A stretch of 64,000 nucleotides of DNA from Anaerolineae bacterium (GCA_026645815.1 JAPKMR010000012.1:26728-90727), one strand, 5' to 3'. Positions 7,197-59,895 are shown, counted from the stretch's first letter. Translations and numbers: made by a program. Notes: generated by a model not told the origin, from the sequence alone.

Positions 7197-7303
7197 TCAC
7201 TCAACACCGGTTTGTTTTTCCGGCATTTGGGTGCAGAATAATGGCAGATTCCCTCGCGTTAGAACTAATGTTCTGGTATAATAAAGGGAGGGGAGGCAAC
7301 ATT

Positions 7304-8680
7304 ATGGCAAAAAGTGAAACTCGATGGATCTGTCAGGAATGTGGCTGGAGCTTCGCGCGACATATGGGAAAGTGCCCCCATTGCGGCGCGTGGGACACGC
7401 TCGTCGAGACGGTCCTGGATACTCCCGCGTCCAATGCCGGAGTGCAGCTTGCCACCGGAGCAGCCACTGTTCGACCGCAAAGGCTTAGCCAGGTGGATGG
7501 CTTTCACGAACAGCGGGTGTCTATACCTATGGGAGAATTATCGCGGGTTTTGGGCGGGGGATTGGTGCCCGGTTCCATCGTCCTAATCGGCGGCGAGCCT
7601 GGCATCGGAAAGTCCACGCTATTGTTGCAAACAGCAGCCATGCTGGGAACGGAGGAGCGCCCGGTGCTCTATGTCTCCGGCGAGGAATCACCCGGCCAAA
7701 TCAAACTTCGCGCCCGGCGGCTAAATCTCACGGGCGACACGGTATTTATGCTGCCGGAAACAGAGGTAGATGCGTTACTAGCTCAGGCAGAAACGCTCCC
7801 CACCCTACAAGCGCTCATCGTGGATTCCATCCAAACAGCACATGTGGACGATTTGAATTCGGCAGCAGGCAGCATCAGCCAGGTGCGGGAGTGCGCAGCT
7901 CGCCTGCAACGCTGGGCCAAGCAAAGCGGTATACCCGTCTTGCTGGTAGGTCACGTGACCAAAGAAGGCGCCATCGCCGGACCCAAAGTGCTCGAACATA
8001 TCGTGGATACCGTATTGTATCTCGAGGGCGACCCCTTCCACACCTACCGCCTGCTACGCAGCGTGAAGAATCGTTTTGGCGCGACCTCGGAGGTTGGCGT
8101 CTTCGAAATGCGGGAGGAAGGCCTGGTCGAAGTCGCCAATCCATCCGAAGCATTTCTGGCGGAGCGTATGGTCAATGTTCCCGGTTCCGCAATCGCGGTC
8201 ACCATGGAGGGCACACGCCCACTGCTCGTGGAAATTCAAGCGCTGGCAAGCCATACCAGTTTTGGCAACCCGCGCCGCACAGTAAACGGCCTCGACTTCA
8301 ACCGGTTACTGCTGGTGGTCGCGGTACTGACGCGGCGTGTGGGCCTGCGACTGGCAGACCAGGATGTATTTGCCAATGTGGTGGGCGGGCTACAGATTGC
8401 CGAACCAGCTGCAGACCTGGCAGTCGCAGTTGCACTGGCTTCCACCGTACGCGATCGTCCCGTGGCAGCTGATCTGGCGCTTGTGGGCGAGGTAGGGCTT
8501 TCAGGAGAGGTGCGGTCTGTGGGGCAACTTGAAGCGCGTATCAAAGAGGCCGCACGCCTGGGATTCCGCAAAGTGCTCGTGCCGCGGACGTTGGGGCGTC
8601 AGAAAACGCGCTTGCCGGAGGGTGTAGAAGCCATTCCAGTGCGCTCCGTCCACGAAGCCATTGACCTGGCGCTTGCGTGA
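7304..8680 (+). CDS. radA: DNA repair protein RadA/Sms
   Basis: Zinc finger CQECGW...CPHCGAW, Walker A GGEPGIGKSTLLLQ, KNRFG motif, and a Lon-like C-terminal domain. The ATG at 7304 is preceded by GGGAGGGGAGG. Confidence 0.95.
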   Translation: MAKSETRWICQECGWSFARHMGKCPHCGAWDTLVETVLDTPASNAGVQLATGAATVRPQRLSQVDGFHEQRVSIPMGELSRVLGGGLVPGSIVLIGGEPGIGKSTLLLQTAAMLGTEERPVLYVSGEESPGQIKLRARRLNLTGDTVFMLPETEVDALLAQAETLPTLQALIVDSIQTAHVDDLNSAAGSISQVRECAARLQRWAKQSGIPVLLVGHVTKEGAIAGPKVLEHIVDTVLYLEGDPFHTYRLLRSVKNRFGATSEVGVFEMREEGLVEVANPSEAFLAERMVNVPGSAIAVTMEGTRPLLVEIQALASHTSFGNPRRTVNGLDFNRLLLVVAVLTRRVGLRLADQDVFANVVGGLQIAEPAADLAVAVALASTVRDRPVAADLALVGEVGLSGEVRSVGQLEARIKEAARLGFRKVLVPRTLGRQKTRLPEGVEAIPVRSVHEAIDLALA

Positions 8681-8717: not shown

Positions 8718-11174
8718 ATGACCAAGAGCCGTTCAAGTCCAAGTAAACCCACGACATCCAGCACACGCCAACCGTCGAACCGACGGCGGCAACGCCCGTC
8801 GAAGCGACGTTCTACGCGCAAGGAGCCGCTCATCCAGCTGAGCCGCGACCAATGGCTGGATTTACTTGGTGGCGCGCTCATACTGGTTGCGCTGGCAACC
8901 ATCCTCAGCCTACTCTCGCCGCAGCAGGGCGCCCTGACCCAATTATGGCTGGTGGGGCTGAAAAAAGTCTTCGGTTGGGGCATGTTCATCGTTCCCCTCT
9001 TTATAGGCGCTTTAGGGCTGTGGCTGATTCTGCGGCGCTTTGATGACCGTCTGCCGCGCCCACAACCTGAACAGGTCGCCGGAGTAGGCATTGGTTTTCT
9101 CACCGCACTCATGACGCTACACCTGATTGCTGCACGCATTTTCTGGCCCGGCGTTGGTCACTTTCAACTTGTGGAGCTAGGAGAAGGTGGGGGACTGATT
9201 GGTGCAGCCCTGCTAGATCTGTCCGTGAAGTTGATTGGTGTAGCCGGCGCCGTGGTGACGCTGCTGATGCTCTGGCTAATCGTCATCACACTGGTCGTGG
9301 GCATTTCACCAGCTGAGGCTGCGCAGCTGCTGCTCAACTGGCGCGCCCAATCCAAACGCCAGGCTCCCGTAGTCGAACAACTATCCTTCCCCACTCTACC
9401 GCCTGAGGAACCACCACCAGCAGTGGGGACCAACGGCATGAATGCCGCGTCCACAGGGAAAATCTCTGCCCCGAAGCCCTCACCCGTGGTGCTCGGAGGG
9501 GAGGCGCCCGCTCGCAGCGGGCAAGAAAAGCCACCGTTCAAGATCAATGGCAACCGCCCAGAAGAAGAGCATCTTGACTTCAAAATCCCGCCCACACCTT
9601 CCGGATCGCCCTGGCGTTTGCCCGCGATTGCGGAAATTCTCGAGGTTGGAAGTGAACAGAGCTTCAGCGATGATCTCATCCGCAAGCAAGCGCGCACCAT
9701 CGAGGAAACCCTCACCAGCCTCGGCGCGCCCGTCAAAGTGCTGGAAACCAACACAGGACCGGTCGTGGTGCAATTTGGCGTAGAGCCGCTGTTCATTGAT
9801 CTTCGAGGCGGCAAACGCACCAAGGTCAAGGTCAGCAAAATCGCCTCGCTAGCAGACGACCTGGCGCTGGCGCTTTCCGCTCGCAGCATTCGCATTGAGG
9901 CGCCGATTCCGGGCAAAGGTCTGGTGGGTATTGAAGTGCCCAATATCGAGCCTTCGGTGGTGGCATTGCGAGATGTGCTCGAATCCCGCGCATTCGCCAA
10001 GCTCAAAGGTTCATTGCGCATGGGCCTGGGTCAGGATGTCTCCGGGCAGGCAGTCGCTGCGGACTTACGCGTCATGCCCCACCTGCTCATCGCCGGAACC
10101 ACAGGCTCCGGGAAATCGGTCTGTGTAAATGCCATCATCGCCGCGCTTATCCTGCAGAACACCCCGGAAACGCTGCGCATGATGATGGTAGACCCCAAAC
10201 GGGTAGAACTCACGCAGTACAATGGGATTCCGCACCTCCTGACCCCCGTGATTGTAGACGTGGACCGGGTGGTGCCGGCGCTGCGGTGGGTAATGCGAGA
10301 AATGGACACGCGCTACCGACGCTTTGCCAAGGTGGGAGCGCGCAACATCGAAGACTTCAACCGTCGTGCCGGCAAGAAGGGCAGCGAGGACGAGGCCATA
10401 CCCTATATCGTGGTCATCGTAGATGAGCTCGCAGATTTGATGATGCAATCACCGGAGGAGACGGAGCGTGTGCTCTGTCGTTTGGCACAGATGGCACGGG
10501 CAACGGGCATTCACCTCATCGTGGCAACCCAACGCCCCAGCGTCAACGTGGTCACCGGGCTGATCAAAGCCAACTTCCCCGCGCGCATAGCCTTCGCCGT
10601 GGCCTCTTCTGTAGATTCCCGCGTGATTCTGGACATGCCGGGCGCAGAACGCCTGCTCGGGCGCGGCGATATGCTCTTCATGCCTCCAGATGCGGGGCAA
10701 CCCTTGCGCTTGCAGGGAACTTTTGTCTCAGATCGCGAACTGGACCGGCTGATTCAGCACTGGCGCCAGGGGAACGCGGCAACGGTAGTTACCACCGGCA
10801 TGAATGCCGCGCCACCTACCTCCAGCCCGCTCGGCATGAATGCCGCGCCGTTGAAAGATACTCCGCCAATCCCCGCGCAGGAACCCCTTTTCCCGGAATT
10901 CGCTGCGCCCGCGCCCCAATTCGAGGATGAGCTCCTGCCCACCGCCGTGGAGATTTTGCTCGCCGAAGACCGCGCGAGCATCTCCCTACTGCAACGCCGA
11001 ATGCGCATCGGCTACACCCGCTCCGCACGGCTTGTGGATTTGATGACAGATCTCGGCATTGTCACGCCCAATGCTGACCAGGGGCAATTCAGGGGAGTCA
11101 ATCGCGCCGTAGCGGAAGCTTTCCTGCGCTCGATAACCTCCGGGACAAATGAGGATAATGACGAGTCGGCATGA
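8718..11174 (+). CDS. ftsK: DNA translocase FtsK/SpoIIIE (paralog 1)
   Basis: N-terminal TM helices, a long Pro-rich linker and a motor domain (LIAGTTGSGKSVCVN, VVIVDELADLMM, ATQRPSV). Gamma winged-helix at the C-terminus (ISLLQRRMRIGYTRSARLVDLM). Confidence 0.9.
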   Translation: MTKSRSSPSKPTTSSTRQPSNRRRQRPSKRRSTRKEPLIQLSRDQWLDLLGGALILVALATILSLLSPQQGALTQLWLVGLKKVFGWGMFIVPLFIGALGLWLILRRFDDRLPRPQPEQVAGVGIGFLTALMTLHLIAARIFWPGVGHFQLVELGEGGGLIGAALLDLSVKLIGVAGAVVTLLMLWLIVITLVVGISPAEAAQLLLNWRAQSKRQAPVVEQLSFPTLPPEEPPPAVGTNGMNAASTGKISAPKPSPVVLGGEAPARSGQEKPPFKINGNRPEEEHLDFKIPPTPSGSPWRLPAIAEILEVGSEQSFSDDLIRKQARTIEETLTSLGAPVKVLETNTGPVVVQFGVEPLFIDLRGGKRTKVKVSKIASLADDLALALSARSIRIEAPIPGKGLVGIEVPNIEPSVVALRDVLESRAFAKLKGSLRMGLGQDVSGQAVAADLRVMPHLLIAGTTGSGKSVCVNAIIAALILQNTPETLRMMMVDPKRVELTQYNGIPHLLTPVIVDVDRVVPALRWVMREMDTRYRRFAKVGARNIEDFNRRAGKKGSEDEAIPYIVVIVDELADLMMQSPEETERVLCRLAQMARATGIHLIVATQRPSVNVVTGLIKANFPARIAFAVASSVDSRVILDMPGAERLLGRGDMLFMPPDAGQPLRLQGTFVSDRELDRLIQHWRQGNAATVVTTGMNAAPPTSSPLGMNAAPLKDTPPIPAQEPLFPEFAAPAPQFEDELLPTAVEILLAEDRASISLLQRRMRIGYTRSARLVDLMTDLGIVTPNADQGQFRGVNRAVAEAFLRSITSGTNEDNDESA
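9435..9449. repeat. palindromic 15-mer GGCATGAATGCCGCG, copy 1
   Basis: Exact string. Read in frame as GMNAA within the ftsK linker. Confidence 0.9.
10797..10811. repeat. palindromic 15-mer GGCATGAATGCCGCG, copy 2
   Basis: Exact string. Read as GMNAA in ftsK between the motor and gamma domains. Confidence 0.9.
10833..10847. repeat. palindromic 15-mer GGCATGAATGCCGCG, copy 3
   Basis: Exact string, 36 nt after copy 2. Read as GMNAA. Confidence 0.9.
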
Positions 11175-11182
11175 ATGCCGCG
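11168..11182. repeat. palindromic 15-mer GGCATGAATGCCGCG, copy 4
   Basis: Exact string in a different frame. Its internal TGA (11172..11174) is the ftsK stop codon. Confidence 0.9.
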
Positions 11183-11210
11183 CAAACGCTCAAGTGGCGG
11201 AGGGTGAGCC

Positions 11211-11819
11211 ATGGTAAGTTATCATCTCTATCGTGATGCCTTTTCCGAGGTTTACACCTATCGCTATCGCCTGACCGATGCGACAGGAGCTCTCGAATTG
11301 ACTGCCAGTTGGCCTGGAATGCCTGTAGCTGACCGCCCCGAAGAAGTCGCCTTTACGGATGCTCAGGGGCAACGGTTGGCACTCCTGCGATGGGAAGACC
11401 GCTCCTGGTGGTATGGCGATCGTTTCTGGATATCTGACATACCAACAGCAACGGCAAACGCCGCGGCAATCGCCACCGTCGAAGAGCAATGGCGGATCGT
11501 AGACCGCTTATTGCTACGCCTACCCGGTTATAGATTGACCCTCAATGAGGGCCTCACTCGGGAAGGCAGTTTCATCGCAAGAGGCAGTCGTTACAGCCAA
11601 CAGCTATATGAGCTCTTCGCCCTACGGCATGAATGCCGCTCTACAGGCGAGGGAAATCTCGTAGAAGAAATCCGTGTGGGCGATGTAGCACATCCCACCA
11701 GTGGACCAACCTATATCTTGCAGGTCGAGCATCCATACCTGGAAAGCCATCCCGTGCTGCTCGCCGTCCTGGGGGTGATTTTGGACCTATGGGGCGTGCA
11801 GCGGGAGCAGCGAGCTTGA
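11211..11819 (+). CDS. hypothetical protein (202 aa)
   Basis: Intact ORF filling the gap between ftsK and the HAD hydrolase. No motif recognised. Contains palindrome copy 5. Confidence 0.5.
   Translation: MVSYHLYRDAFSEVYTYRYRLTDATGALELTASWPGMPVADRPEEVAFTDAQGQRLALLRWEDRSWWYGDRFWISDIPTATANAAAIATVEEQWRIVDRLLLRLPGYRLTLNEGLTREGSFIARGSRYSQQLYELFALRHECRSTGEGNLVEEIRVGDVAHPTSGPTYILQVEHPYLESHPVLLAVLGVILDLWGVQREQRA
11626..11639. repeat. palindromic motif GGCATGAATGCCGC, copy 5
   Basis: Exact 14-mer, read in the third frame as RHECR inside 11211..11819. Confidence 0.85.
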
Positions 11820-12502
11820 ACGAAAACAGCATTCCCTTTGACCAGGTGCGCGCCTGGTTCTTCGATCTCGATGGGACGCTGATGGATACCGACGATCAGT
11901 CCGTGGCATCGCTCTCAAAGTGGCTGCGCTTCCTGGGCGCCACACGCGCACAACGGCTTGCGCGGCGCTTGATCATGTTCTCCGAGACGCCATCCAATGC
12001 GGCGCTCACCTTTCTGGATATATTGCACCTGGATACGGCAGCCTTTGCATTGGAAAAGCGCTTCACCCATGCTGGGCGCAGCTATAATTTCAAAATCATC
12101 GAAGGCGTTGTGCCCATGCTGACACAGCTCAGTTCCCGTTATCCGCTGGTGGTAGTCTCCACACGCGGGACCGCAGCCTCAGAAGCCTTTCTCGCACAAT
12201 ATAGCCTCACGTCTCTATTCCCGGTCGCCGTCACCCGTGAGAGCACCCGACGCCTCAAGCCGCACCCTGCACCGGTGCAATACGCTGCACAAGCGCTCGG
12301 ACTCAAACCCGAAGAGTGCGTAATGGTGGGCGATACGACTGTGGATATCATTTCGGCAAGACGAGCAGGGGCCTGGGCCATCGGAGTCTTGTGTGGTTTT
12401 GGCGAGGAAAAAGAGCTCTGGCGCGCTGGCGCGCATCTCGTGTTGCCCACCACGGCAGACTTGCTCGCCATTCAAGCGCTTTTCCCGGCAGCGCCGGTCT
12501 GA
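11789..12502 (+). CDS. HAD-superfamily hydrolase (phosphoglycolate phosphatase-like)
   Basis: Motif I FFDLDGTLMDTD, motif II VVVSTRG, and motif IV MVGDTTVDIISARRAGA. The start is uncertain: ATG at 11789, or TTG at 11816 overlapping the upstream stop. The tracked ORF start at 11633 overlaps the upstream gene heavily. Confidence 0.8.
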   Translation: MGRAAGAASLNENSIPFDQVRAWFFDLDGTLMDTDDQSVASLSKWLRFLGATRAQRLARRLIMFSETPSNAALTFLDILHLDTAAFALEKRFTHAGRSYNFKIIEGVVPMLTQLSSRYPLVVVSTRGTAASEAFLAQYSLTSLFPVAVTRESTRRLKPHPAPVQYAAQALGLKPEECVMVGDTTVDIISARRAGAWAIGVLCGFGEEKELWRAGAHLVLPTTADLLAIQALFPAAPV

Positions 12503-12523
12503 GCATGGCGCACTCCGGCGCTC

Positions 12524-12537
12524 GGCATAAATGCCGC
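12524..12537. repeat. palindromic motif variant GGCATAAATGCCGC, copy 6
   Basis: One central substitution. Lies in the intergenic gap between the convergent HAD and NYN genes. Confidence 0.75.
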
Positions 12538-12569
12538 ATGCTGCCGGCAAGAGACTCAGCCGCGCAAGA

Positions 12570-13700
12570 TCAATCCTCAGAAGCCTCTCCATAGAGCCGG
12601 AACCATTGCTCCCGCTCCTCAGGGCTAAGGCCATCATCGGTTTGAACTGATTCATCGGGCAATTCAGGTGTACGAGCCTGATGCTTACGCAGTTTGGGCG
12701 AGCGGATAGTCTCCGAATGGCGGCGCCGGGCAACTTTGGGCGCTGTCGCTTTGCCAGTCTCATCCACCGCAGGGCCTTCGAATTGCGGTTCCGGAAACAA
12801 TTCCAGCCAGGCCTCGACCTCTTCCGGCGGCAAACCCGCTTCAGTTTCCTTCGGCAAAAATGCCGCATCCACGGCAAGCGAGGCGGGCTTTTGGGGACGG
12901 ACCTGCGCCTTCAACAAGCGTCGCGGTGGATGGGGTCCCTCCGGCACATCATGGAAAACCTGCAACCAATCTGCTACTTCCTCAGCTGAAACCTCCGCCG
13001 GTTTCCCCATCTCCGTGGTTGCAGGGAGATCCGGTTCCGGCGCCAGGGGCACACCCAAACGCTCTGCCAATGTCGGTGCATACGTAGGAGGCTCCGGAAG
13101 TCGCTTCCCAGGGGGCGCCTCCGAAGGCGCAGGTGTCCTGCCAGCGGCGCCCGAAACCGGTGATGAAGGGGGAGGGGGAGGCTGATGCCTGACAGCCGAT
13201 CGGCATAAATGCCGCGTGTGCGCAGCAGGCTCGGGTGGTTCAGGAAAAACTTCCAACCATTCGTGAACTTCAGCAGTTGATGGCTCGCGCGGTTTCTCAA
13301 ATGCGGGGCGGGCTGCGGGCTGTAATTCCAACGCGAACTCCTGGGAGGTCATCACCCGCGCACCGACACGCCGGGCGACATCGAGAATCGCGTGATCAGA
13401 GCTGACCACGGTCCAATTACCCGAATCACGCAGTTTCTCCAGATGCTTGATGATAATACGATCAGCAGTACTGCGTTTATGCGCAGCAAAAATCACCTCC
13501 AAATCCATGCTGGAGAGCTGCCGAGAATAGCCACCGGGAATGCCACCATCAAAAACAACGGTAGCTTTGCGGCGTTTGTGTCCCAGCCAACCCCGTAGCT
13601 TGAGAATCAGAGCGACCTCGTCCTCCGGGTCTTCAATGTGAATATCCGGCAACGCAGCAATCAGATTATGTCCATCAATCAGAAAAGGCATTGGAATCAA
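12570..13700 (-). CDS. NYN/YacP-like RNase domain protein with a repeat-bearing Pro-rich C-terminal extension
   Basis: The N-terminal 130 aa (FLIDGHNLI...VVFDGG...VVSSDHAI) resembles the YacP/Rae1-type NYN domain. The C-terminal 240 aa is Pro-rich with four EEVxxWLxxF-like repeats. Confidence 0.7.
   Translation of the reverse strand: MIPMPFLIDGHNLIAALPDIHIEDPEDEVALILKLRGWLGHKRRKATVVFDGGIPGGYSRQLSSMDLEVIFAAHKRSTADRIIIKHLEKLRDSGNWTVVSSDHAILDVARRVGARVMTSQEFALELQPAARPAFEKPREPSTAEVHEWLEVFPEPPEPAAHTRHLCRSAVRHQPPPPPSSPVSGAAGRTPAPSEAPPGKRLPEPPTYAPTLAERLGVPLAPEPDLPATTEMGKPAEVSAEEVADWLQVFHDVPEGPHPPRRLLKAQVRPQKPASLAVDAAFLPKETEAGLPPEEVEAWLELFPEPQFEGPAVDETGKATAPKVARRRHSETIRSPKLRKHQARTPELPDESVQTDDGLSPEEREQWFRLYGEASED
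12853..12866. repeat. palindromic motif variant GGCAAAAATGCCGC, copy 7
   Basis: Degenerate left arm. Inside the NYN gene, read on the minus strand as AAFLP. Confidence 0.6.
13202..13216. repeat. palindromic motif variant GGCATAAATGCCGCG, copy 8
   Basis: One central substitution. Inside the NYN gene, read on the minus strand as RHLCRS. Confidence 0.75.
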
Positions 13701-13742: not shown

Positions 13743-15497
13743 TCATGGCGTATCGGGCAGACGAGTCCACAAAATCACGCGCGTGATTTGTGGGGCAGCA
13801 GGCATCTTCCTGTGGAAATACCACGCCAGAGGATGACCACATACAGGAGGGAACACCCCCGGCTCGCACCCAATAATCCCGCCGCTGTTTTCCAGGAGCA
13901 CCCCAAAAGCCATTCCACTATAAGCAAGGCTCGTCTCCACCGGCGGTGTAACTGTTTCGAGCGTAAGCAGCATCTCGGGCGTGCCGGATGGCCAGGTAGC
14001 AAGGCTGCGCAATGCGGTAGGCTGCAAAGTCCATCGCACCACCGACCACGCATCCGCAAGATTCGGGTCGCTCTCCACGACAACAAGGTCTATCGCGTCA
14101 GGGCTGATCCCACGAGCGATGCGCAAATCCTCAATCACACGGCGCAGGTTACGCACATCCTCTGAAACACCGATTGTCACCAAAGGCTCCGCCGGATTTA
14201 CCGGGGCGATAAACGCAGCCTGGCTGCCGAATCCCACTTGCAGCAGGCATGCCACCACAACGAGTCCCCAAATCAGGCCGTTCACAGCTCGCCGCAGCCC
14301 CGCCAGCGTAGCAAAGCCCGCCATCATCAATCCATGAATGACCAGCACGAGCAGCACCAGTGGAAGTTCGAGGCCGTTGGCATACTGCCCCCCACGAGCC
14401 TGCCGCAGCAAGACCAAGGCGACAAAAAACCACAGCACAATGCCGAGCGCCGTATGTACCCACTCCACCCAGGCATTGTGGGTTAAGCGAGACGGGATGA
14501 GGTGTCGCGCGGCCCACCCTCCCAACAACGCTAATGGCAAGAGCGGGGCAAGAAAGGCTGCCGGCGCCGCACCAGGGCGGAGTACAACCAGCAACGTTGC
14601 CAGAACAGCCCATGCCGCCAGGGCGAGAAGCCGCGACTCGCGGTGACGTATCGCCAGCCCCAGGCCGACGGCAGCGAGCAACAGAATCAGCGGTTCGTAA
14701 AGGAGGAGCAGTAGTGGATTGGCGGAAATCGCCGGGAATTGCCACTCACGGAGCCAAAGCAGCAGCCCCTCAACGGGACCGGCCCAGCCATTCCAGCGCG
14801 CGCCCAATCCCAACGAGATCAAGAGCGCAACCAGCAGTCCCAGGCCCGCGGCGCGACGACACTCACGGCTCAAAGCAGGCACACGCCCTTCAACCCAATG
14901 CCAGATGCCCCAGGCCAATAGACCCGACGTAAAAACATCGTAGAAGGCAGGTCCACCAACCAGCCCGATTGCCAGCCCCGCACCAAGGAGCCACGCACCG
15001 CGGCGGTTATCGCCGTTGAGGGACAGGGCAAAAAGCCCGGTGATCACCAGCACGCCACCGAACGTCCCCAGAGTGGTCGCATTGACCTGCCTTGAGACAA
15101 AAAGCGCGATGGGGGAGAGCAGGAGCAAGAAAGCCGCGCCAAGGACCGGAAAAGCCGGCGGCGCCGGCTCTGCCGGCGGGGCGCCCGCCCGCTCAGACAA
15201 GGGCAGCAGCTCGCGCCACAACCACGGCGTCAGCGCGAGAAGAACGCCAGCCAGGGCGGGCAGAAAACGCGCTATACCACTGCCGCTGCCAAATAGAGTA
15301 AAAAGCAAAGCGTTGCCATTCAGCAACAGAGCGCTGGTGGGGGAAAGGGTCCACTGTCGCTCCTCGACAGCCTCCAATGCCTGGAGCGCGATTTGCGCCT
15401 CATCGGGAGCCAATAACGCCGCATCCAGGGCACTCAACCGTGTGAGCAACAGAAGTAAAAACAGCACACCCCAATACCAACGGAATGATTTCGACAT
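13743..15497 (-). CDS. polytopic membrane protein, GT-C/PMT-like (TIGR03663-like)
   Basis: 584 aa, about 12 or more hydrophobic segments, with a soluble C-terminal domain. Adjacent to the DUF2298 YYY protein, a pairing I recall for Chloroflexi and Archaea. The family assignment is from memory only. Confidence 0.55.
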   Translation of the reverse strand: MSKSFRWYWGVLFLLLLLTRLSALDAALLAPDEAQIALQALEAVEERQWTLSPTSALLLNGNALLFTLFGSGSGIARFLPALAGVLLALTPWLWRELLPLSERAGAPPAEPAPPAFPVLGAAFLLLLSPIALFVSRQVNATTLGTFGGVLVITGLFALSLNGDNRRGAWLLGAGLAIGLVGGPAFYDVFTSGLLAWGIWHWVEGRVPALSRECRRAAGLGLLVALLISLGLGARWNGWAGPVEGLLLWLREWQFPAISANPLLLLLYEPLILLLAAVGLGLAIRHRESRLLALAAWAVLATLLVVLRPGAAPAAFLAPLLPLALLGGWAARHLIPSRLTHNAWVEWVHTALGIVLWFFVALVLLRQARGGQYANGLELPLVLLVLVIHGLMMAGFATLAGLRRAVNGLIWGLVVVACLLQVGFGSQAAFIAPVNPAEPLVTIGVSEDVRNLRRVIEDLRIARGISPDAIDLVVVESDPNLADAWSVVRWTLQPTALRSLATWPSGTPEMLLTLETVTPPVETSLAYSGMAFGVLLENSGGIIGCEPGVFPPVCGHPLAWYFHRKMPAAPQITRVILWTRLPDTP

Positions 15498-20013: not shown

Positions 20014-20972
20014 GCGCCTCCTTCTGCAACCGAGTCAGTTTCGTCATACGGGTGTTCGGCATCGCCATCCTTCAAATCATGCCGCGCGGCAAGCGGTTCA
20101 ATACTGAGAAGAATACCGCTGCGAGGTAAGTGATAAGCCCGGTAAGGCAGGTCATCAATGAGCACTTCAAAAGCCCGCGGAGAAACCGAGAAATGTCGCG
20201 CGCCGATCACGTACGCATAAGGTTGATAAGGTCGTGGCTGTTTCAAACGCCGTCCAATACCCCCGGTCGCCTCTACACGCCCCCGAAGCAGGTCGGACCA
20301 CAGCTGAGACGGGGTAAAATCGCCCGCAATAGTGATGAATCGCGGCAACAAGCGAAGCAACTGCGACGTTGTCAACTCCCCGCGGCGATTGGCGGCTAAG
20401 GTATCCCGATTAAAGTCAAGCACGGCAGAAAGAGCCTCAAGCAAAGCCTCGCGCGTATCTGCCGTCGCCGACTTGCCAATCACCTCGGCGGAGAGCACAA
20501 AACCAGAGCGAGGAAGAAAATAGAAGCGGTAAAGCATATCCGGTCTCAGGTCTAGCGGATTGGAGGGGAGCAACAGAACGCGATTGTCCAATACCGCTTC
20601 ATAGCCGCCTCGGGTATAGAGCAGACGGCCCTCTGCAGATTCAAGGCGCTCTTCAACCAGGTCTCGGCGCAACAACAGCTGGCGTTGGATGAGGGGGGGA
20701 ACCGTGAGCATAAACATCTCGGTGCCGACGATGAGAGCAATGAACAAGAGCACCCAGACCACAATGGCTGGGGCACGCCCTCCCAACAAGAACACCAGCG
20801 CTATCAAAGCGCCAGCGGGAAGGATCACACGCCGCAGCAAATAGGTAAGGCATCCACGCCGACCTCGAGCGGCGCGGGTCGCGCGCTCACGTTGCGCATC
20901 CGTCAGTTCGCCACGTTGGTTGGCTGCGAGGCCCGCCGCGTCCGTCAGGTCAATCTTCACCTTCACCGTCAT
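20010..20972 (-). CDS. hypothetical membrane protein with internal duplication
   Basis: Two TM helices (residues roughly 50-95). Repeated segments: LAANQRGELTDAQ / LAANRRGELTTSQ, and LYRFYFLPRSGFVLSAEVI / PYRAYHLPRSGILLSIEPL. Its start overlaps the ftsK-paralog stop by 23 nt. Confidence 0.55.
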   Translation of the reverse strand: MTVKVKIDLTDAAGLAANQRGELTDAQRERATRAARGRRGCLTYLLRRVILPAGALIALVFLLGGRAPAIVVWVLLFIALIVGTEMFMLTVPPLIQRQLLLRRDLVEERLESAEGRLLYTRGGYEAVLDNRVLLLPSNPLDLRPDMLYRFYFLPRSGFVLSAEVIGKSATADTREALLEALSAVLDFNRDTLAANRRGELTTSQLLRLLPRFITIAGDFTPSQLWSDLLRGRVEATGGIGRRLKQPRPYQPYAYVIGARHFSVSPRAFEVLIDDLPYRAYHLPRSGILLSIEPLAARHDLKDGDAEHPYDETDSVAEGGA

Positions 20973-23292
20973 CCCCCAGAATCACCTGGCGCTTGCGCCC
21001 TGCCGCCGCTTGTGGACCGACAATGCCCATCGCTTCCATTTGCTCCATCAGACGCGCGGCACGGGGATAGCTGATACGCAGGCGTCTCTGAATCGCAGAA
21101 GTAGAGATATTGCCCTGCTGTTGCGCGAGGGCAATGGCTTTTTCCAGCAAATCGGCATCCTCAGTCTCACCCTCAATTCGCCATTGTTCAGGGCTGGCGC
21201 TTTCAGCAACCGCCTCCCAGGGAGCCTGAGAAGGCGTCGCCCCCATCTGCCGCTGCCAGAAATGAATCAAAGCCTCCAATTCCTCGTCAGAGATATAACA
21301 CCCCTGAATACGACGCGGCGCAGCCGCATCAGGCGCCAGGAAGAGCATATCGCCCTGCCCCAACAGGGACTCTGCGCCGGGCGTATCCAGAATGACGCGC
21401 GAGTCCACATTGCTGGTGACCGCAAAACTCACCCGCGCGGGGAAGTTAGCCTTGATGAGACCGGTGACCACGTCGGTGCTGGGGCGTTGCGTAGCTACGA
21501 CCAGATGGATCCCGGTAGCACGCGCCATCTGAGCAATGCGTGTAAGGCTACGCTCCGTCTCATCGGGCGCAGCCATCATCAGGTCAGCGAGCTCGTCAAT
21601 AAGCACCACAATACGCGCCAACGGTTCAAGGCCCTGGCGCTCGGCATGACGGTTGTAATCCTCCAGATTGCGCGCCGGGACACTGGCGAAACGCTTATAG
21701 CGATCCTCCATCTCCAGCGTGACCCATCGCAGCACACGCAAGATGCGCTCCAGCTCAGTTTCGGCCTTGCCCAGCAGGTGCGGCAGGCCATTCAAGTGAC
21801 TGAGCTCAACCATCTTGGGGTCAATGGCAACCAGTTTAAGCTCAGTAGGTGCATTGCGCATGATGAGGCTGGCGGCAATCGCTTTCACGAAGACCGATTT
21901 CCCGCTGCCAGTCGTTCCCGCAACAAGCAAATGGGGCATCGTGCTCAGATTAGCTCCCACAGCCGTCCCGGCGACATCGAGTCCCACAGCAAAACAAAGC
22001 GCTTTGTTGCACCGGGCATATTCTTGACTTTCGAGCACGCGTCGCAGGGTTACGAGGCTAATCTCCTCATTCGGTACTTCGATGCCAACCACGGCACGAC
22101 CGGGCACCGGAGCCTCAACGCGCAGCGAGCGGGCAGCAAGCGCAAGTTTCAAATCGTCAGCCAGTGCTGAAATCTGGCTAACGCGTACTTTGCGCTGGTC
22201 CTCACCATCCTGCCCGCGCGCCACAAAGCCTGGAGTTACACCAAATTGGGTAACCGTGGGACCTTGACGCACTTCTGTGACCTGCGCGGGCACCCCAAAC
22301 TGCGCCAGGGTTTGCTCAATGATACGGCTCTTGCGATCAATCTCAATCTGACTCATACTGGGCGCGCGCGCCGGTTGCAACAGCGTCAATGACGGCAAGT
22401 TGAGCTTAGGTTTGGCCGGTTCCTCAGCAGGAGCCACAGGCAGCAGTGGCGGCGAAGCCGGCGCCTTCCTTGCCCCGCGCTCTGGCGAGGGGGAAACAGC
22501 CACACCAGCCCCCAACAGGCTACCCTCAGCCCGCCGAGCAGCCTCCTTCTCGGCGGCTCGAGCGGTAGCGGCATCCTGTGCCGCTTTGCGCGCAGCCTCT
22601 CTGTTATCCTGGTATTCCCTCCAGGCTACTGCCATCCGCCCCCCCAGGGCACGCAAGTCATCGAGGGTCACATCGAAAACCAGCCCAATGCCCACAAGGA
22701 TGAGCAAGCCCATGAGGAAAACGGTGACCAGAATGTTGGAGTAATAGATGAAAGAGAAACTCAAAGCCCAACCAATTAAGCCCCCGCCCTGCCCAGAGAG
22801 CACAGCGTCCCAGCCGAACTGACGGACAAAGACGTGGCTCAACGCCAATAGACCAAAGAAAGCCAGCTCAAAACCCAAGAGGGGACGCCAACGCCAGGCC
22901 GTCGGGCGATGTACCAGATGCCGCAACCAAAGTAGTCCCAGGCAAACGATCAATCCGGCAGTGACATACGCTCCCCAACCGAAAATGAGCACCAACAGGC
23001 GACTCCAACCAGTGATCAGTGCGCCTGTATTGATACCTGCCAGCGTGACTATGGTAACAAAGCCGAAGAAAATCAAAGCCAAAGCGAGCAATTGTTGGCC
23101 TGTAGCGCTACGTGCAACAGCGCTCAGCGCCGGTCCAAACCTGCGCTCCGGAACAGCCGGAGACGCCTGAGAAGGCGCCGCTTTCCCAGGCGCAGGTTTT
23201 GTCTGCCCACGGCGCTGTGAAGCAGACTTACCCTGTGGGCGCGTCATTCTATAAGCGGGTTGGGACCTTTTAGTAGATTGTCGCTTCGCCAT
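20950..23292 (-). CDS. DNA translocase FtsK/SpoIIIE (paralog 2)
   Basis: N-terminal TM helices, an Ala/Pro-rich linker and a motor domain (LVAGTTGSGKSVFVK, VVLIDELADLMM, ATQRPS). Gamma domain ISTSAIQRRLRISYPRAARLMEQM. Confidence 0.9.
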   Translation of the reverse strand: MAKRQSTKRSQPAYRMTRPQGKSASQRRGQTKPAPGKAAPSQASPAVPERRFGPALSAVARSATGQQLLALALIFFGFVTIVTLAGINTGALITGWSRLLVLIFGWGAYVTAGLIVCLGLLWLRHLVHRPTAWRWRPLLGFELAFFGLLALSHVFVRQFGWDAVLSGQGGGLIGWALSFSFIYYSNILVTVFLMGLLILVGIGLVFDVTLDDLRALGGRMAVAWREYQDNREAARKAAQDAATARAAEKEAARRAEGSLLGAGVAVSPSPERGARKAPASPPLLPVAPAEEPAKPKLNLPSLTLLQPARAPSMSQIEIDRKSRIIEQTLAQFGVPAQVTEVRQGPTVTQFGVTPGFVARGQDGEDQRKVRVSQISALADDLKLALAARSLRVEAPVPGRAVVGIEVPNEEISLVTLRRVLESQEYARCNKALCFAVGLDVAGTAVGANLSTMPHLLVAGTTGSGKSVFVKAIAASLIMRNAPTELKLVAIDPKMVELSHLNGLPHLLGKAETELERILRVLRWVTLEMEDRYKRFASVPARNLEDYNRHAERQGLEPLARIVVLIDELADLMMAAPDETERSLTRIAQMARATGIHLVVATQRPSTDVVTGLIKANFPARVSFAVTSNVDSRVILDTPGAESLLGQGDMLFLAPDAAAPRRIQGCYISDEELEALIHFWQRQMGATPSQAPWEAVAESASPEQWRIEGETEDADLLEKAIALAQQQGNISTSAIQRRLRISYPRAARLMEQMEAMGIVGPQAAAGRKRQVILGDDGEGED

Positions 23293-27675: not shown

Positions 27676-28530
27676 TTACAGCGAACCGAGAGCTGGCGAG
27701 TTCAAAACCCCACGAATAATAGTCTCCAGGCGTGGCACCAAAATCCGACCTGCCTCCAGGACCTCCTCGTGATTCGGCGGAGGGCTGCCCTCCTCACCCA
27801 CGAGCCGATTAGAAATGCCCGAAAGACCCAGAACCTCCATGCCACAGTGCCGCGCAGTGATGACCTCTGGAACCGTGGACATGCCGACAGCGTCCGCGCC
27901 AATCAAACGCAGGAAGCGCACATCAGCGGGTGTTTCGAAAGCGGGTCCCGCCAGACAGATGTACACGCCCTGATGATGGGGGATTCCGGCGCGCAAAGCG
28001 ATCTCATGAGCAACGGCGCGCAAACGCGGCGCATAGGCATCATTCATACTTGGGAAACGCGGGCCAAATTCCTCTAGATTGGGTCCAAAGAGAGGGTTGT
28101 GCCCCGCCATACCCAGCAGATTGATGTGATCACGCAGAATCATCACATCGCCCGGCTGATAGGACAGGTGCAGACCACCGGCGGCATTGGTTACAATGAA
28201 AGTCTCTACGCCCAGCAGTCGCATCACGCGCACCGGCAAGCCGATTTGCGCCATGCTGTTGCCCTCGTAGAAGTGCCCTCTGCCCTGCATCGCAATGACA
28301 CTGCGCCCCTCCAGGGCTCCTATGACCAACCTGCCCACGTGCCCCTGGACATGTGCTGCCGGGAAATAGGGAACATCCCCAAAGGGAATCACCGTTGCGC
28401 CCTCAATAGACTCCGCTAACGCATTCAACCCCGAACCCAAAATCATCCCAACAGTGGGTCGAAGCCCACTGCGCTGTTGAATGACGTCCGCAGCTTGCCG
28501 ATAGGCGTCCATAGTGAAATACTCTGTCAT
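27676..28530 (-). CDS. punA: purine nucleoside phosphorylase (trimeric PNP/MTAP family)
   Basis: Matching segments: GMILGSGL, GHVGRLVIGALEGRSVIAMQGRGHFYEG, VTNAAGG, and VGMSTVPEVI. Confidence 0.9.
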   Translation of the reverse strand: MTEYFTMDAYRQAADVIQQRSGLRPTVGMILGSGLNALAESIEGATVIPFGDVPYFPAAHVQGHVGRLVIGALEGRSVIAMQGRGHFYEGNSMAQIGLPVRVMRLLGVETFIVTNAAGGLHLSYQPGDVMILRDHINLLGMAGHNPLFGPNLEEFGPRFPSMNDAYAPRLRAVAHEIALRAGIPHHQGVYICLAGPAFETPADVRFLRLIGADAVGMSTVPEVITARHCGMEVLGLSGISNRLVGEEGSPPPNHEEVLEAGRILVPRLETIIRGVLNSPALGSL

Positions 28531-29492
28531 TCTGTTTCCTCCTCCGTGTGATGGGCAGGCTCAACACCTGCCTCAAAAGCGCGCGGGTGAGCTTGATCAT
28601 AAGCCGCACGTTTACGCTGGCTCGATACTTCGGTATAAATTTGTGTGGTGGTGATACTGGCATGCCCCAGGAACTGCTGTACCTCACGTAAGTCGGCGCC
28701 GCCATCTAAGAGGTGGGTAGCAAAACTATGACGCAAAGTGTGCGGCGTCACACGATCTTCTAATCCAGAATCCTGAGCATACTGCCGAATAATGAACCAT
28801 AAGCCCTGCCGGGTAAGGGGACGCCCCACCCGGTTGAGAAACAAGGTGGTCTCATTGGCGTTGGTGAGCAGAAAAGATCGTGCATCTGAAAGATAACGGC
28901 TCAGAATCTGCTGTGCCCGCGGGTGCAAAGGAATCAGACGCTCTTTGTTACCCTTGCCCACACAACGAAGCATACCACCGGACAAGTCCACATCAGCGGT
29001 TCGCAAGGCGATGACTTCTGTGGCGCGCAAGCCAGCTGCGTAGAGCACTTCCAGGAGCGCACGATCGCGCAACTTAAGCGGCGTCTCCGCCCCAGAAGCC
29101 GCCTGCAATAGCTGTTCAACTTCATGCTCAGAAAGCGCATGAGGGAGACGGTGCCCCACCTTGGGTTGCGGCAGCCATGCAGTGAGCTCGCGCGTGAGCT
29201 CACCCTCAGAGTACAGGAAATGCAAGAATGAGCGCGCGGCAGCAACTTTGCGAGCCACCGTTGCGAGGCTATAAGAGAGTTCCTGTAAGCTCGCAACGAA
29301 ATGTTCAAGCAACTCTGGCGTCAGATCAGACCATGAGTGAAGGTCCTGTGCCTCCATGAAGCCAAGTAGTTGCTCTAAATCGCGGCGATAAGCCGCCAAC
29401 GTGTTGGCGGCATATCCCCGTTCATATTGCATATAGTTCAAGAAGCGATCGAGGCGTGTATGCATTGCTTTCCACAGAATCCTGTTTGCCAA
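28527..29492 (-). CDS. xerD: site-specific tyrosine recombinase XerD/XerC family
   Basis: SAM-like N-terminal domain (YERGYAANTLAAYRRDL). Catalytic residues in GLRATE, LRHSFATHLL and HASITTTQIYTEV. The XerC versus XerD assignment is not certain. Confidence 0.85.
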   Translation of the reverse strand: MANRILWKAMHTRLDRFLNYMQYERGYAANTLAAYRRDLEQLLGFMEAQDLHSWSDLTPELLEHFVASLQELSYSLATVARKVAAARSFLHFLYSEGELTRELTAWLPQPKVGHRLPHALSEHEVEQLLQAASGAETPLKLRDRALLEVLYAAGLRATEVIALRTADVDLSGGMLRCVGKGNKERLIPLHPRAQQILSRYLSDARSFLLTNANETTLFLNRVGRPLTRQGLWFIIRQYAQDSGLEDRVTPHTLRHSFATHLLDGGADLREVQQFLGHASITTTQIYTEVSSQRKRAAYDQAHPRAFEAGVEPAHHTEEETE

Positions 29493-54404: not shown

Positions 54405-54430
54405 CCTGAACAAGAGAGGATCAGCAACCA

Positions 54431-55723: not shown

Positions 55724-55749
55724 TTAGGGGCTAACGTAGGAGGACTATC

Positions 55750-57159: not shown

Positions 57160-57189
57160 CGCTCCAGAGAGGAAAGAAGGTACTGGACG

Positions 57190-58128: not shown

Positions 58129-58144
58129 AAAATTAGGCTGGGGA

Positions 58145-59080: not shown

Positions 59081-59132
59081 GAGAATCTCGAGATCTTAGC
59101 ACATCAAGGACTCTCACGTAAATAAGGCCCCT

Positions 59133-59861: not shown

Positions 59862-59895
59862 CTGTACCAAAACAAATCTTTCAGGAGGGCATGTC

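What the first reader, a model, noticed from the sequence alone, without database searches (positions are those of the whole stretch)
9435..13216. Local cluster of eight copies of a 14-15 bp palindrome (GGCATGAATGCCGCG) read in every frame across four genes
The exact 15-mer GGCATGAATGCCGCG occurs at 9435, 10797, 10833 and 11168. The 14-mer occurs at 11626. Close variants (GGCATAAATGCCGC, GGCAAAAATGCCGC) occur at 12524, 12853 and 13202. Arms GGCAT/ATGCC, extended to CGGCAT/ATGCCG in most copies, flank a 2-nt centre. By eye I found no other full copy in the remaining 60 kb, only a half-like fragment near 16316. A given 14-mer is not expected even once by chance in 64 kb. The copies sit in ftsK (three times translated as GMNAA, once supplying the TGA stop codon itself), in the hypothetical gene 11211..11819 (read as RHECR), in an intergenic gap, and on the antisense strand of the NYN gene (read as RHLCRS and AAFLP). 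Use of all reading frames and both strands indicates that the nucleotide motif is being maintained, not a peptide. Possible readings are a cluster of binding sites for a dimeric DNA-binding protein (parS/NBS/matS-style chromosome landmark or a local regulator), or footprints of a very small palindromic insertion element that is tolerated in disordered linkers.
Basis: seen in the sequence. Interest (0 to 1): 0.7.

Follow-up and report, generated by a model that had tools for sequence, protein, structure and literature searches.

The report
Tiny 15-base hairpin insertions, locally clustered
Eight identical-looking 15-base palindromes in a 3.8-kb stretch of an Anaerolineae chromosome are each a separate, seamless and recent insertion of one hairpin-forming DNA unit, which is smaller than any described mobile repeat and, in all DNA I could examine, occurs only around ftsK and its neighbours.

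Summary
There are eight copies of CGGCA-NNNN-TGCCG-C at 9434-13215, all in one orientation. None occur in the other 60 kb (chance of such clustering about 2e-8).

Comparison with syntenic loci of close relatives (96%, 86% and 79% nucleotide identity) shows that every copy is a precise 15-nt insertion with no target-site duplication. Copy number runs 0, 1, 2, 8 and 11 across lineages. Two contigs that differ by 0.08% differ in one copy. Twelve 15-nt sites and one 12-nt variant are known in the clade, and all lie in the same 3.8 kb.

Surviving copies sit in FtsK linkers, at the FtsK stop codon, in loops of a tubby-like protein, in an intergenic gap and in the NYN protein tail. Target sites are sequence-biased (C at -4, pyrimidine at +2). 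Stems drift at about the background rate.

Best reading: a REP-like but much smaller, untagged, non-autonomous hairpin element that is copied locally. The route is probably single-stranded DNA at the replication fork, but this is inferred. No transposase lies in the 64 kb.

The binding-site-array reading is not supported. Genome-wide distribution could not be tested.

The parts
9434..9448 (+). Copy 1, CGGCATGAATGCCGC. It lies in the FtsK linker between the 4TM and alpha domains (TK-S becomes TN-GMNAA-S).
   Evidence: Precise 15-nt insertion ACCAA^GTC relative to L121, L122, L124 and L126. Absent from 14 FtsK orthologues. Present in P0122, P0123 and L127.
10796..10810 (+). Copy 2, in the FtsK linker between the motor and gamma domains. 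There is a T>C change right at the 5' junction.
   Evidence: 15-nt insertion relative to relatives. In the L127-L129 lineage its 4-nt loop is exactly inverted (TGAA to TTCA) while position 15 is unchanged.
10832..10846 (+). Copy 3, in the same FtsK linker, 36 nt from copy 2.
   Evidence: Precise insertion CCGCT^GCC. Absent in P0122 and P0002.
11167..11181 (+). Copy 4, the oldest copy. Its loop supplies the FtsK TGA stop codon (11172-11174).
   Evidence: Present in all contigs of the roughly 96%-identity clade (L121-L123, L127-L131, L262-L269). Absent (16-nt gap) in L124 and L126.
11452..11463 (+). 12-nt insertion CGGCAAACGCCG ('ANAA' in the 202-aa protein). It is a possible shortened relative of the variant CGGCAGAAACGCCGC seen in L127.
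   Evidence: Insertion relative to L121, L122, L124 and L131. Its relation to the family is inferred from sequence resemblance only.
11625..11639 (+). Copy 5, in a loop of the tubby-like 202-aa protein (RHECR, aa 139-143).
   Evidence: Precise insertion CCCTA^TCT. Polymorphic among cluster members. It falls in the pLDDT dip at residues 141-150 of the model.
12523..12537 (+). Copy 6 (loop TAAA), in the 67-nt gap between the convergent HAD and NYN genes.
   Evidence: Present in the window, L130, L127, L121 and L263. Absent in L122, L262, L264, L267 and L268, which differ from L121 by about 0.08%.
12852..12866 (+). Copy 7 (loop AAAA; TAGA in L127), antisense in the NYN C-terminal tail (AAFLP).
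   Evidence: Precise insertion TCCTT^ATC. Polymorphic among NYN proteins.
13201..13215 (+). Copy 8 (loop TAAA), antisense in the NYN tail (RHLCR).
   Evidence: Precise insertion CCGAT^GT. Present alone in P0302.
8718..11174 (+). ftsK (818 aa), host of copies 1-4.
   Evidence: Pfam FtsK_4TM 83-203, FtsK_alpha 313-409, FtsK_SpoIIIE 417-609, FtsK_gamma 736-788. The insertions lie between domains.
11211..11819 (+). Conserved 202-aa protein with a tubby/LURP-one-like beta-barrel. It hosts copy 5 and the 12-nt insertion.
   Evidence: No Pfam hit. AlphaFold2 model pLDDT 82. Foldseek hits 1zxu, 3c5n and 2fim. It is not a nuclease or transposase.
12570..13700 (-). NYN_YacP-domain protein with a long C-terminal tail of about 240 aa. 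It hosts copies 7 and 8, and in relatives also sites a, b and c.
   Evidence: Pfam NYN_YacP aa 7-135. Haplotype alignment A6.

Best explanation
The eight palindromes are members of a family of discrete 15-nt units, 5'-CGGCA-NNNN-TGCCG-C-3'. As single-stranded DNA the unit folds into a 5-bp stem with a 4-nt loop.

Shown:
- Each copy was inserted separately and seamlessly, with no target-site duplication, into a 3.8-kb stretch (ftsK, tubby-like gene, HAD gene, NYN gene) of one species-level Anaerolineae lineage.
- Insertions are recent and still segregating.
- All window copies have the same DNA-strand orientation, whatever the direction of the gene they sit in.
- Insertions land at sequence-biased targets.
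- Surviving copies are only where 5 extra codons, or a stop at the very C-terminus, are harmless.

Inferred: the unit behaves as a non-autonomous, REP-like miniature hairpin element. It is copied over short distances, tens of nt to about 1.4 kb from an existing copy, through single-stranded DNA at the replication fork. The most likely agent is a trans-acting hairpin-recognising HUH/Y1-type (RAYT or IS200/IS605-like) enzyme encoded elsewhere in the genome. Purifying selection then removes insertions in structured protein regions. On this reading the copies are selfish or neutral, not a selected array of binding sites.
For: Insertion:
- The FtsK alignment shows the three GMNAA blocks only in this lineage.
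- The nucleotide alignment shows all 8 copies as exact 15-nt gaps in relatives, with unambiguous boundaries and no duplicated flank.

Ongoing dynamics:
- Copy numbers are 0 (L126, L258-261), about 2 decayed or odd copies (L124), 1 (L122), 2 (L121), 8 (window and the independent assembly L130) and 11 plus one 12-nt variant (L127).
- L121 and L122 differ by 0.08% yet differ at site 6.
- Sites assort among near-identical proteins.

Locality:
- All 12 sites plus 1 variant in the clade lie within window 9434-13215.
- None occur in the other 60 kb of the window or in the 10-kb flanks of relatives.
- Loop variants are spatially sorted: TGAA on the ftsK side, TAAA/TAGA/AAAA on the NYN side.

Defined unit and enzyme-like features:
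- Length and ends are constant in 11 of 11 clean sites.
- Orientation is the same at 8 of 8 window sites and 11 of 12 sites in the clade.
- The target is biased: C at -4 in 10 of 11 (P=5e-5), pyrimidine at +2 in 11 of 11 (P=5e-4), CYAC at +2/+3 in 4 of 11 against 1.5% background.
- On the other strand, that CYAC reads GT[GA]G 2-3 nt 5' of the hairpin foot, which resembles the REP layout described in PMC6006769.

Hairpin in vivo:
- The DNA fold is about -5 kcal/mol.
- One allele shows an exact inversion of the 4-nt loop.

Strand: third-codon skews mark the - strand as the lagging-strand template across the whole window.

Neutrality: stems differ between the window and L127 at 3 of 88 positions, about the 3.6% background, with no compensation. 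The L124 copy at site c has 3 of 15 changes.

Precedent: intragenic REPs in linkers, and REP ends supplying stop codons, are known (PMC3733652).
Against: - No transposase, RAYT, reverse transcriptase or other HUH gene lies in the 64 kb or in the Pfam tables of relatives' flanks.
- The central uncharacterised gene is a tubby-like barrel, not an enzyme of this kind.
- At 15 nt with a 5-bp stem, the unit is below the size and stem length of any described REP or IS200/IS605 end, and it carries no GTAG or CGTC tag of its own.
- Known REP families are dispersed genome-wide, whereas this one is confined to 3.8 kb in everything I could see. Local hopping is an assumption.
- One copy in L124 is in the opposite orientation.
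- Recombination in the population is frequent, so excision cannot be shown.
- The target-site statistics are post hoc on 11 sites.
- The rest of the genome could not be searched.
Confidence: 0.5

Rival explanations
1. Enzyme-free templated insertion. During replication or recombinational repair the nascent strand briefly switches to a nearby existing copy, copies the hairpin and switches back (template switching or short-tract ectopic gene conversion). New copies therefore arise only within a kilobase or so of old ones.
For: - Strict locality and very short distances between neighbouring sites: 36, 51 and 59 nt.
- Loop variants are sorted by position.
- The exact loop inversion at site 2 in L127 is a classical intra-hairpin template-switch product.
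- The 12-nt variant at 11452 sits on a target that already began with CGGCAA.
- Some pairs of sites share 3-4 nt of flank, for example CGCT at sites 3 and 6 and CCAA at sites 1 and c.
- No mobility enzyme lies nearby.
Against: - Ends are identical in 11 of 11 clean insertions, even where neither flank shares a base with any possible donor (sites 1 and 5).
- Orientation is almost invariant, although inverted switches should be common for a near-palindrome.
- The strongest flank signal is at -4, not at the junction base where annealing would be needed.
- SNP density next to the sites is not raised.
Confidence: 0.25
2. The copies are a selected array of binding sites for a dimeric DNA-binding protein, for example a centromere-, Noc/SlmA- or MatP-like landmark or a local regulator. 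Insertion is only the way new sites arise.
For: - The symmetric 5+5 arms with a 4-bp centre have the shape of a dimer site.
- Stems are intact in all 8 window copies while loops vary.
- Insertions recur in the same region in separate lineages (L124, L127, window).
Against: - The sites are absent from orthologous loci at 79-86% identity and beyond.
- The number of sites ranges from 0 to 11 among close strains.
- Stem changes in L127 and L124 are uncompensated and occur at about the background rate.
- The motif is unrelated to the conserved parS consensus (own knowledge).
- No ParB or other candidate binder lies in the window.
Confidence: 0.1
3. The hairpins act in RNA, for example as processing, stability or translation signals in the ftsK operon and NYN transcripts, and are retained for that reason.
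For: - The stem reads CGGCA/UGCCG on either transcript, because it is palindromic.
- Copy 4 overlaps the ftsK stop, 36 nt before the next start codon.
- Copy 6 lies between convergent genes.
- The two stem changes in L127 give G-U pairs.
- REPs are often proposed to work as RNA elements (PMC3733652).
Against: - Most copies lie inside coding sequence, where ribosomes would unwind them.
- There was no Rfam match.
- Presence/absence polymorphism and lack of conservation argue against function, as for the binding-site reading.
- Orientation follows the DNA strand, not transcription.
Confidence: 0.05
4. An assembly or sequencing artefact inserted a palindromic 15-mer.
For: Palindromes can confuse assemblers, and all the data are metagenomic assemblies.
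Against: - The same alleles recur in independent assemblies and sources: the NCBI MAG, JGI/IMG, ENA, and Logan assemblies of more than 12 different runs.
- Alleles are lineage-specific and carry their own later point mutations.
- All intragenic copies keep the reading frame open.
Confidence: 0.01

Closest known systems
REP / REPIN elements mobilised by RAYT (TnpA-REP) Y1 HUH enzymes
   Same: - A short G+C-rich hairpin repeat with no coding capacity.
- Seamless presence/absence between strains.
- Occasional in-frame location in protein linkers, with ends that supply stop codons (PMC3733652).
- Strand-specific single-stranded DNA logic tied to the lagging-strand template (PMC6006769).
- A GT[GA]G lies 2-3 nt from the hairpin foot at 4 of 11 sites, on the - strand.
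- REPs can cluster around one locus (the REPtron).
   Different: - 15 nt with a 5-bp stem, against 20-40 nt with stems of at least 7 bp.
- No GTAG or CGTC tag inside the unit. Where GT[GA]G is present it belongs to the pre-existing target.
- Mostly intragenic.
- No RAYT gene within the cluster or the 64 kb.
- Confined to 3.8 kb rather than dispersed.
- Single units, never inverted doublets.
Small dispersed repeats (SDR) of heterocystous cyanobacteria (Elhai et al. 2008, Genome Res 18:1484; cited in PMC3116915; content from my own knowledge because the paper is not held)
   Same: Very small hairpin-forming units, shown to be insertions by comparing orthologous loci, with no known enzyme.
   Different: SDRs are 21-27 nt, occur in many copies dispersed through the genome, and are mainly intergenic. 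The present unit is 15 nt and local.
Rickettsia palindromic elements (RPE; Ogata et al. 2000, 2002; cited in PMC3733652)
   Same: Palindromic selfish DNA inserted in frame in functional protein genes and tolerated in surface loops or linkers.
   Different: RPEs are about 100-150 bp, ancient and dispersed. Here the units are 15 nt, young and local.
IS200/IS605 'peel-and-paste' single-strand transposition
   Same: No target duplication, seamless joints, hairpin recognition, a fixed orientation relative to replication, and insertion next to a short sequence-specific target.
   Different: Those elements need two different hairpin ends plus guide sequences (about 100 nt or more) and a tnpA gene. 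A single 15-nt hairpin has room for neither.
Template-switch (quasipalindrome) mutations that create or invert hairpins (e.g. 10.1101/2021.04.15.439925)
   Same: A local, replication-linked process. It explains the loop inversion at site 2 in L127 and could explain de novo origin of the first hairpin.
   Different: Such events copy the reverse complement of adjacent sequence. They do not explain about 12 insertions of the same foreign 15-mer with identical ends.

Membership tests
REP (repetitive extragenic palindrome) / RAYT system | Unit of 20-40 nt with a fully paired basal stem of 7-20 bp and a loop of 2-5 nt (PMC6006769, PMC3733652) | tested here: not met
   The unit is 15 nt with a 5-bp stem and a 4-nt loop.
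REP (repetitive extragenic palindrome) / RAYT system | GT[AG]G (or CGTC) tetranucleotide 0-2 nt from the hairpin foot, as part of the repeat | tested here: not met
   There is no tag inside the inserted unit. GT[GA]G occurs in the pre-existing flank, 2-3 nt from the stem on the - strand, at 4 of 11 sites. This is enriched (P about 2e-5, post hoc) but not universal.
REP (repetitive extragenic palindrome) / RAYT system | A cognate RAYT (Y1 HUH) gene in the genome, typically flanked by the repeats | tested here: inconclusive
   None in the 64-kb window or in relatives' flanks. The central unknown gene has a tubby-like fold.
REP (repetitive extragenic palindrome) / RAYT system | Many copies dispersed through the chromosome, mostly extragenic | tested here: not met
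   In the window, 8 copies lie in 3.8 kb and 0 in 60 kb, and 7 of 8 overlap coding sequence. The genome-wide part is not testable.
IS200/IS605-type single-strand transposition (works-like test) | No target duplication, a fixed orientation relative to the replication strand, and a sequence-specific target next to the insertion | tested here: met
   Junctions are seamless. Orientation is the same at 8 of 8 window sites and 11 of 12 clade sites. The skew shows one replication direction across the window. The target is biased at -4 and +2.
IS200/IS605-type single-strand transposition (membership) | Two distinct subterminal hairpin ends with guide sequences, and a tnpA gene in the family | tested here: not met
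   There is a single 15-nt hairpin and no tnpA in the window.
parS / NBS / matS-like chromosomal binding-site array | Sites conserved at orthologous positions in related genomes, under purifying selection | tested here: not met
   The sites are absent from orthologous loci of relatives at 79-86% identity, polymorphic within the species, and show uncompensated stem changes.
parS / NBS / matS-like chromosomal binding-site array | A cognate DNA-binding protein that binds the motif | not testable with these tools
   No ParB, Noc, SlmA or MatP-like gene is in the window. Testing this needs ChIP or DAP-seq.
HIP1-like genome-wide over-represented oligomer | Similar density throughout the genome | tested here: not met
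   There are 0 copies in the remaining 60 kb and none in relatives' flanking 10 kb. Whole-genome density was not testable: the 596-Gb scan was swamped by single chance hits.
Template-switch (quasipalindrome) mutation | The new sequence is the reverse complement of adjacent sequence, with variable ends and microhomology | tested here: not met
   The same 15-mer with identical ends appears at 11 sites with unrelated flanks. The feature is met only for the loop inversion at site 2 in L127.

The most novel reading that the evidence does not exclude
A 15-nt DNA hairpin is itself a self-propagating unit, the smallest mobile DNA yet seen. It spreads by short-range copy-and-paste at the replication fork, either without any dedicated transposase or through a host hairpin-processing enzyme, and adds 5-residue peptides to proteins in real time within a natural population.
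Probability: 0.25. Interest if true: 0.85.

Novelty: new variant of a known kind. Interest (0 to 1): 0.65.

Why it matters
If real, this pushes the lower size limit of repeat units that spread by insertion from about 21-40 nt (SDR, REP) down to 15 nt. That is too short to carry the tag and guide sequences that current models of REP and IS200/IS605 mobility require.

It also provides a natural time series (0, 1, 2, 8 and 11 copies at under 4% divergence, with one gain or loss at 0.08%). Target choice, locality, strand bias and the fate of 5-residue insertions in essential proteins such as FtsK can be read directly from that series.

The strict confinement to 3.8 kb is not explained by any described system. 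It makes the question of how hairpin repeats are actually copied experimentally approachable.

Tried and rejected
The only Anaerolineales hit (L021) is the centre of an unrelated long palindrome.

2. tRNA and Rfam searches of the window found nothing.

3. Two look-ups of window-edge proteins, meant to extend the source contig, failed, probably because I chose the wrong start codons. The 34 kb of the 98.5-kb contig outside the window were therefore not seen.

4. REPtron idea: the unknown gene at the centre of the cluster might have been the enzyme. It was rejected because the fold is tubby/LURP-one-like and the gene is conserved in relatives that have no copies.

5. Footprints of a larger, locally hopping transposon were rejected. 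No full-length element appears in any of the nine or more haplotypes, and the insert is always the same 15 nt.

6. Mutagenic repair around the sites was rejected. Flanking SNP density is 4.4% against a 3.8% background.

7. Precise excision inferred from incongruent site distribution could not be supported, because sliding-window divergence shows a mosaic, recombining population. The shared site c in L124 and L127 remains unexplained.

8. The candidates at 16316 and 15125 are conserved coding sequence, not copies.

9. The paper by Elhai et al. 2008 could not be read.

Full report
**Observation.** The exact 15-mer GGCATGAATGCCGCG occurs four times (9435, 10797, 10833, 11168), with none expected in shuffles. 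The looser pattern GGCATNNATGCC with at most 1 mismatch adds 11626, 12524, 12853 and 13202. All eight are on the + strand, and the remaining hits in the window are one-mismatch chance matches. Alignment of the copies with their flanks shows no similarity outside a core of about 16 nt. Eight random points spanning 3,767 nt or less of 64,000 has probability about 2e-8. The 'half copy' at 16316 is conserved coding sequence in all relatives and is a chance resemblance.

**Context.** Pfam gives these genes:
- radA (7241-8680, +)
- ftsK (8718-11174, +)
- a 202-aa protein with no family (11211-11819, +)
- a HAD hydrolase (to 12502, +)
- an NYN_YacP protein (12570-13700, -)
- a 584-aa unknown protein (-)
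- DUF2298 (-)

The rest of the window holds housekeeping genes: holA, sortase, tdk, Mut7-C, comEA, a second ftsK paralogue, an xerC/D-like recombinase, hrcA-grpE-dnaJ, uvrD, moeA and a Tad pilus locus. It has no transposase, reverse transcriptase or HUH gene. There are no tRNA genes and no Rfam matches. FtsK homologues identify the source as an uncultured Anaerolineae bacterium (Chloroflexota).

**Each copy is an insertion.** An alignment of FtsK with 15 orthologues of 98-66% identity shows the three GMNAA blocks only in the window's protein; even 98%-identical proteins lack them. I fetched syntenic DNA from relatives:
- L121-L123: 96% nucleotide identity
- L124: 86%
- L126: 79%

In a nucleotide alignment, each of the eight copies corresponds to a clean 15-nt gap in relatives. 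The inserted string is always CGGCAT[G/A]AATGCCGC (once CGGCAAAAATGCCGC). No flanking base is duplicated. At sites 1, 3, 5, 6, 7 and 8 the boundaries are unambiguous. Site 2 has a T>C change at the junction. Site 4, at the ftsK stop, is a 16-nt gap against diverged sequence.

Of 13 indels separating the window from L122, seven are this unit. One is a 12-nt look-alike (CGGCAAACGCCG at 11452). The others are ordinary tandem-repeat slippage or a nearby duplication.

**Population dynamics.** Copy numbers by lineage:
- L126 and the L258-L261 lineage: none
- L124: two old or odd copies
- L122 and six sister contigs: only site 4
- L121 and L263: sites 4 and 6
- Window and an independent Logan assembly (L130): eight
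- L127: all eight plus three more 15-nt insertions in or next to the NYN gene

L121 and L122 differ at 8 of 10,600 positions (0.08%) yet differ in site 6. Protein clusters show further haplotypes:
- FtsK with site 1 only
- the 202-aa protein with or without RHECR and ANAA in all four combinations
- NYN proteins carrying only site 8, only site a, or all but one site

The same alleles recur in NCBI, JGI, ENA and more than 12 Logan runs, so they are not assembly artefacts. Sliding-window divergence shows mosaic relationships between the three main lineages. Recombination therefore shuffles these alleles, and losses cannot be told from gains. More distant relatives (75-46% protein identity) have no copies. 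In total the clade has twelve 15-nt sites and one 12-nt variant, all between window positions 9434 and 13215.

**Anatomy.**
- As single-stranded DNA the unit folds into a 5-bp stem (CGGCA/TGCCG) with a 4-nt loop, at about -5 kcal/mol, and leaves a 3' unpaired C.
- The loop varies (TGAA, TAAA, AAAA, TAGA) and the variants are spatially sorted: TGAA at the five ftsK-side sites, the others on the NYN side.
- In the L127 lineage the loop of site 2 is the exact reverse complement (TTCA) while position 15 is unchanged. This is an intra-hairpin template-switch product and indicates that the hairpin forms in vivo.
- Between the window and L127 the stems and tail differ at 3 of 88 positions (all C>T, uncompensated) against a 3.6% background. 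The loops differ at 4 of 32.
- The L124 copy at site c has 3 of 15 changes.
- There is thus no sign of purifying selection on the motif.

**Where copies survive.**
- FtsK copies lie between Pfam domains, at aa 240, 694 and 706.
- The one frame that creates a stop codon is used only at the extreme C-terminus, where it became the stop.
- In the 202-aa protein, the insertions fall in loops, and the 15-nt one (RHECR) coincides with a confidence dip at residues 141-150. I modelled this protein (pLDDT 82) and found it to be a tubby/LURP-one-like barrel.
- In the NYN protein all sites are in the long tail after the domain.
- This is the pattern expected from insertion followed by selection against damage.

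**Target and strand.** Across 11 clean sites the + strand flank has C at -4 in 10 (P=5e-5). It has a pyrimidine at +2 in all 11 (P=5e-4). It has CYAC at +2/+3 in 4, against 1.5% of random junctions. Read on the - strand, that CYAC is GT[GA]G 2-3 nt 5' of the hairpin foot, which recalls the REP layout (PMC6006769). These statistics are post hoc.

Orientation is the same at 8 of 8 window sites and 11 of 12 clade sites, in genes of both directions. The exception is an inverted copy with altered ends in L124. Third-codon-position skews are C- and A-rich on the + strand in genes of both orientations. The - strand is therefore the lagging-strand template throughout the window, and no origin or terminus lies inside it.

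**Interpretation.**

Shown: discrete, seamless, oriented, target-biased, recent and local insertions of one 15-nt hairpin unit.

Inferred: the constant ends, even where no flank base matches any possible donor, together with the constant orientation and a target signal four bases from the junction, point to recognition of a defined unit rather than microhomology. This matches the logic of Y1 HUH single-strand systems (REP/RAYT, IS200/IS605): no duplication, hairpin recognition, and strand specificity tied to the lagging-strand template. Very short hops (36-59 nt between several neighbours; whole range 3.8 kb) would fit re-insertion into single-stranded DNA at the same fork.

Against this:
- No such enzyme is in the window.
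- The unit is below every published size and stem criterion.
- It carries no GTAG or CGTC tag.
- Known REP families are dispersed.

The main rival is enzyme-free template switching from a neighbouring copy. It explains the locality, the loop inversion and the 12-nt variant on a CGGCAA-containing target. It does not explain the invariant ends and orientation.

The sites are absent in relatives, vary from 0 to 11 among strains, and drift neutrally.

**What remains unexplained.**
- Why three separate lineages (L124, L127, window) gained insertions only in this interval.
- Whether the shared site c in L124 and L127 reflects an old insertion lost precisely elsewhere, or recurrent use of a CCCAA^ target (site 1 uses ACCAA^).
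- Whether other clusters exist in the genome. The whole-collection scans were swamped by chance matches, and the contig could not be extended.

**Comparison and novelty.** The closest known kinds are:
- REPs (20-40 nt, tagged, RAYT-associated, sometimes intragenic, known in Chloroflexi; PMC3733652)
- cyanobacterial small dispersed repeats (21-27 nt; Elhai 2008, cited; content from my own knowledge)
- Rickettsia palindromic elements (in-frame in genes, but about 100-150 bp)

The present family works like these but fails the REP membership criteria that could be tested. It is smaller than all of them and strictly local. I file it as a new variant of a known kind, with a meaningful chance that the mechanism is new.

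Noticed in passing
window 20950-23292 (-) and 28527-29492 (-): A second FtsK paralogue (alpha, motor and gamma domains; 780 aa) lies 10 kb from the first, and an XerC/D-type tyrosine recombinase lies nearby. The paralogue has similar linkers but carries no hairpin insertion, so it serves as an internal control for locality.
   Followed up: partly
window 11211-11819 (+): The conserved 202-aa Anaerolineae protein with no Pfam family is predicted (pLDDT 82) to be a beta-barrel around a C-terminal helix. Its best structural matches are At5g01750 (LURP-one/DUF567) and Tubby C-terminal domains.
   Followed up: yes
L127:3734-3748 (site 2 of the L127-L129 lineage): The 4-nt loop is exactly inverted (TGAA to TTCA) while the stems and the asymmetric 3' C are unchanged, turning GMNAA into GIHAA. 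This is a textbook hairpin loop inversion.
   Followed up: yes
L124:12991-13005 and L124 site c (aligned to window ~11827 and ~13055): The 86%-identical relative has two 15-nt insertions of its own. One is in the opposite orientation with altered end bases (TGGCATAAATGCCGG on the - strand). The other is a decayed copy (CTGCGTAGATACCGC) at exactly the position where L127 has an intact copy with the same TAGA loop.
   Followed up: partly
window 8771-8782, 11544, 12757, 13167-13172, 15154-15171: The other indels against close relatives are ordinary: a 12-nt near-duplication of sequence 25 nt downstream in the basic N-terminus of FtsK, copy-number change of a 12-nt EGLD repeat, and 9-, 6- and 18-nt tandem duplications.
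   Followed up: yes
window 53319-60456 (+): A Tad/Flp-type pilus locus is present: SAF-domain protein, response-regulator-ParA/CpaE-like ATPase, T2SSE ATPase and two T2SSF proteins. It is preceded by a LuxR-type two-component pair.
   Followed up: no
loci L001-L120 and L138-L257 (random hits): 32 of 240 loci that were fetched for a single chance match hold a second CGGCA-N4-TGCCG elsewhere in the locus, against about 6 expected from my rough composition estimate. A few have inverted pairs 50-140 nt apart (L019, L020, L075, L095). This hairpin shape may be a common component of unrelated repeats or terminators.
   Followed up: no
window 1-64000: Third-codon-position skews are C- and A-rich on the + strand in genes of both orientations. 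The whole window therefore lies on one replichore, with the - strand as the leading strand. The radA-ftsK-HAD operon is oriented head-on to replication.
   Followed up: partly
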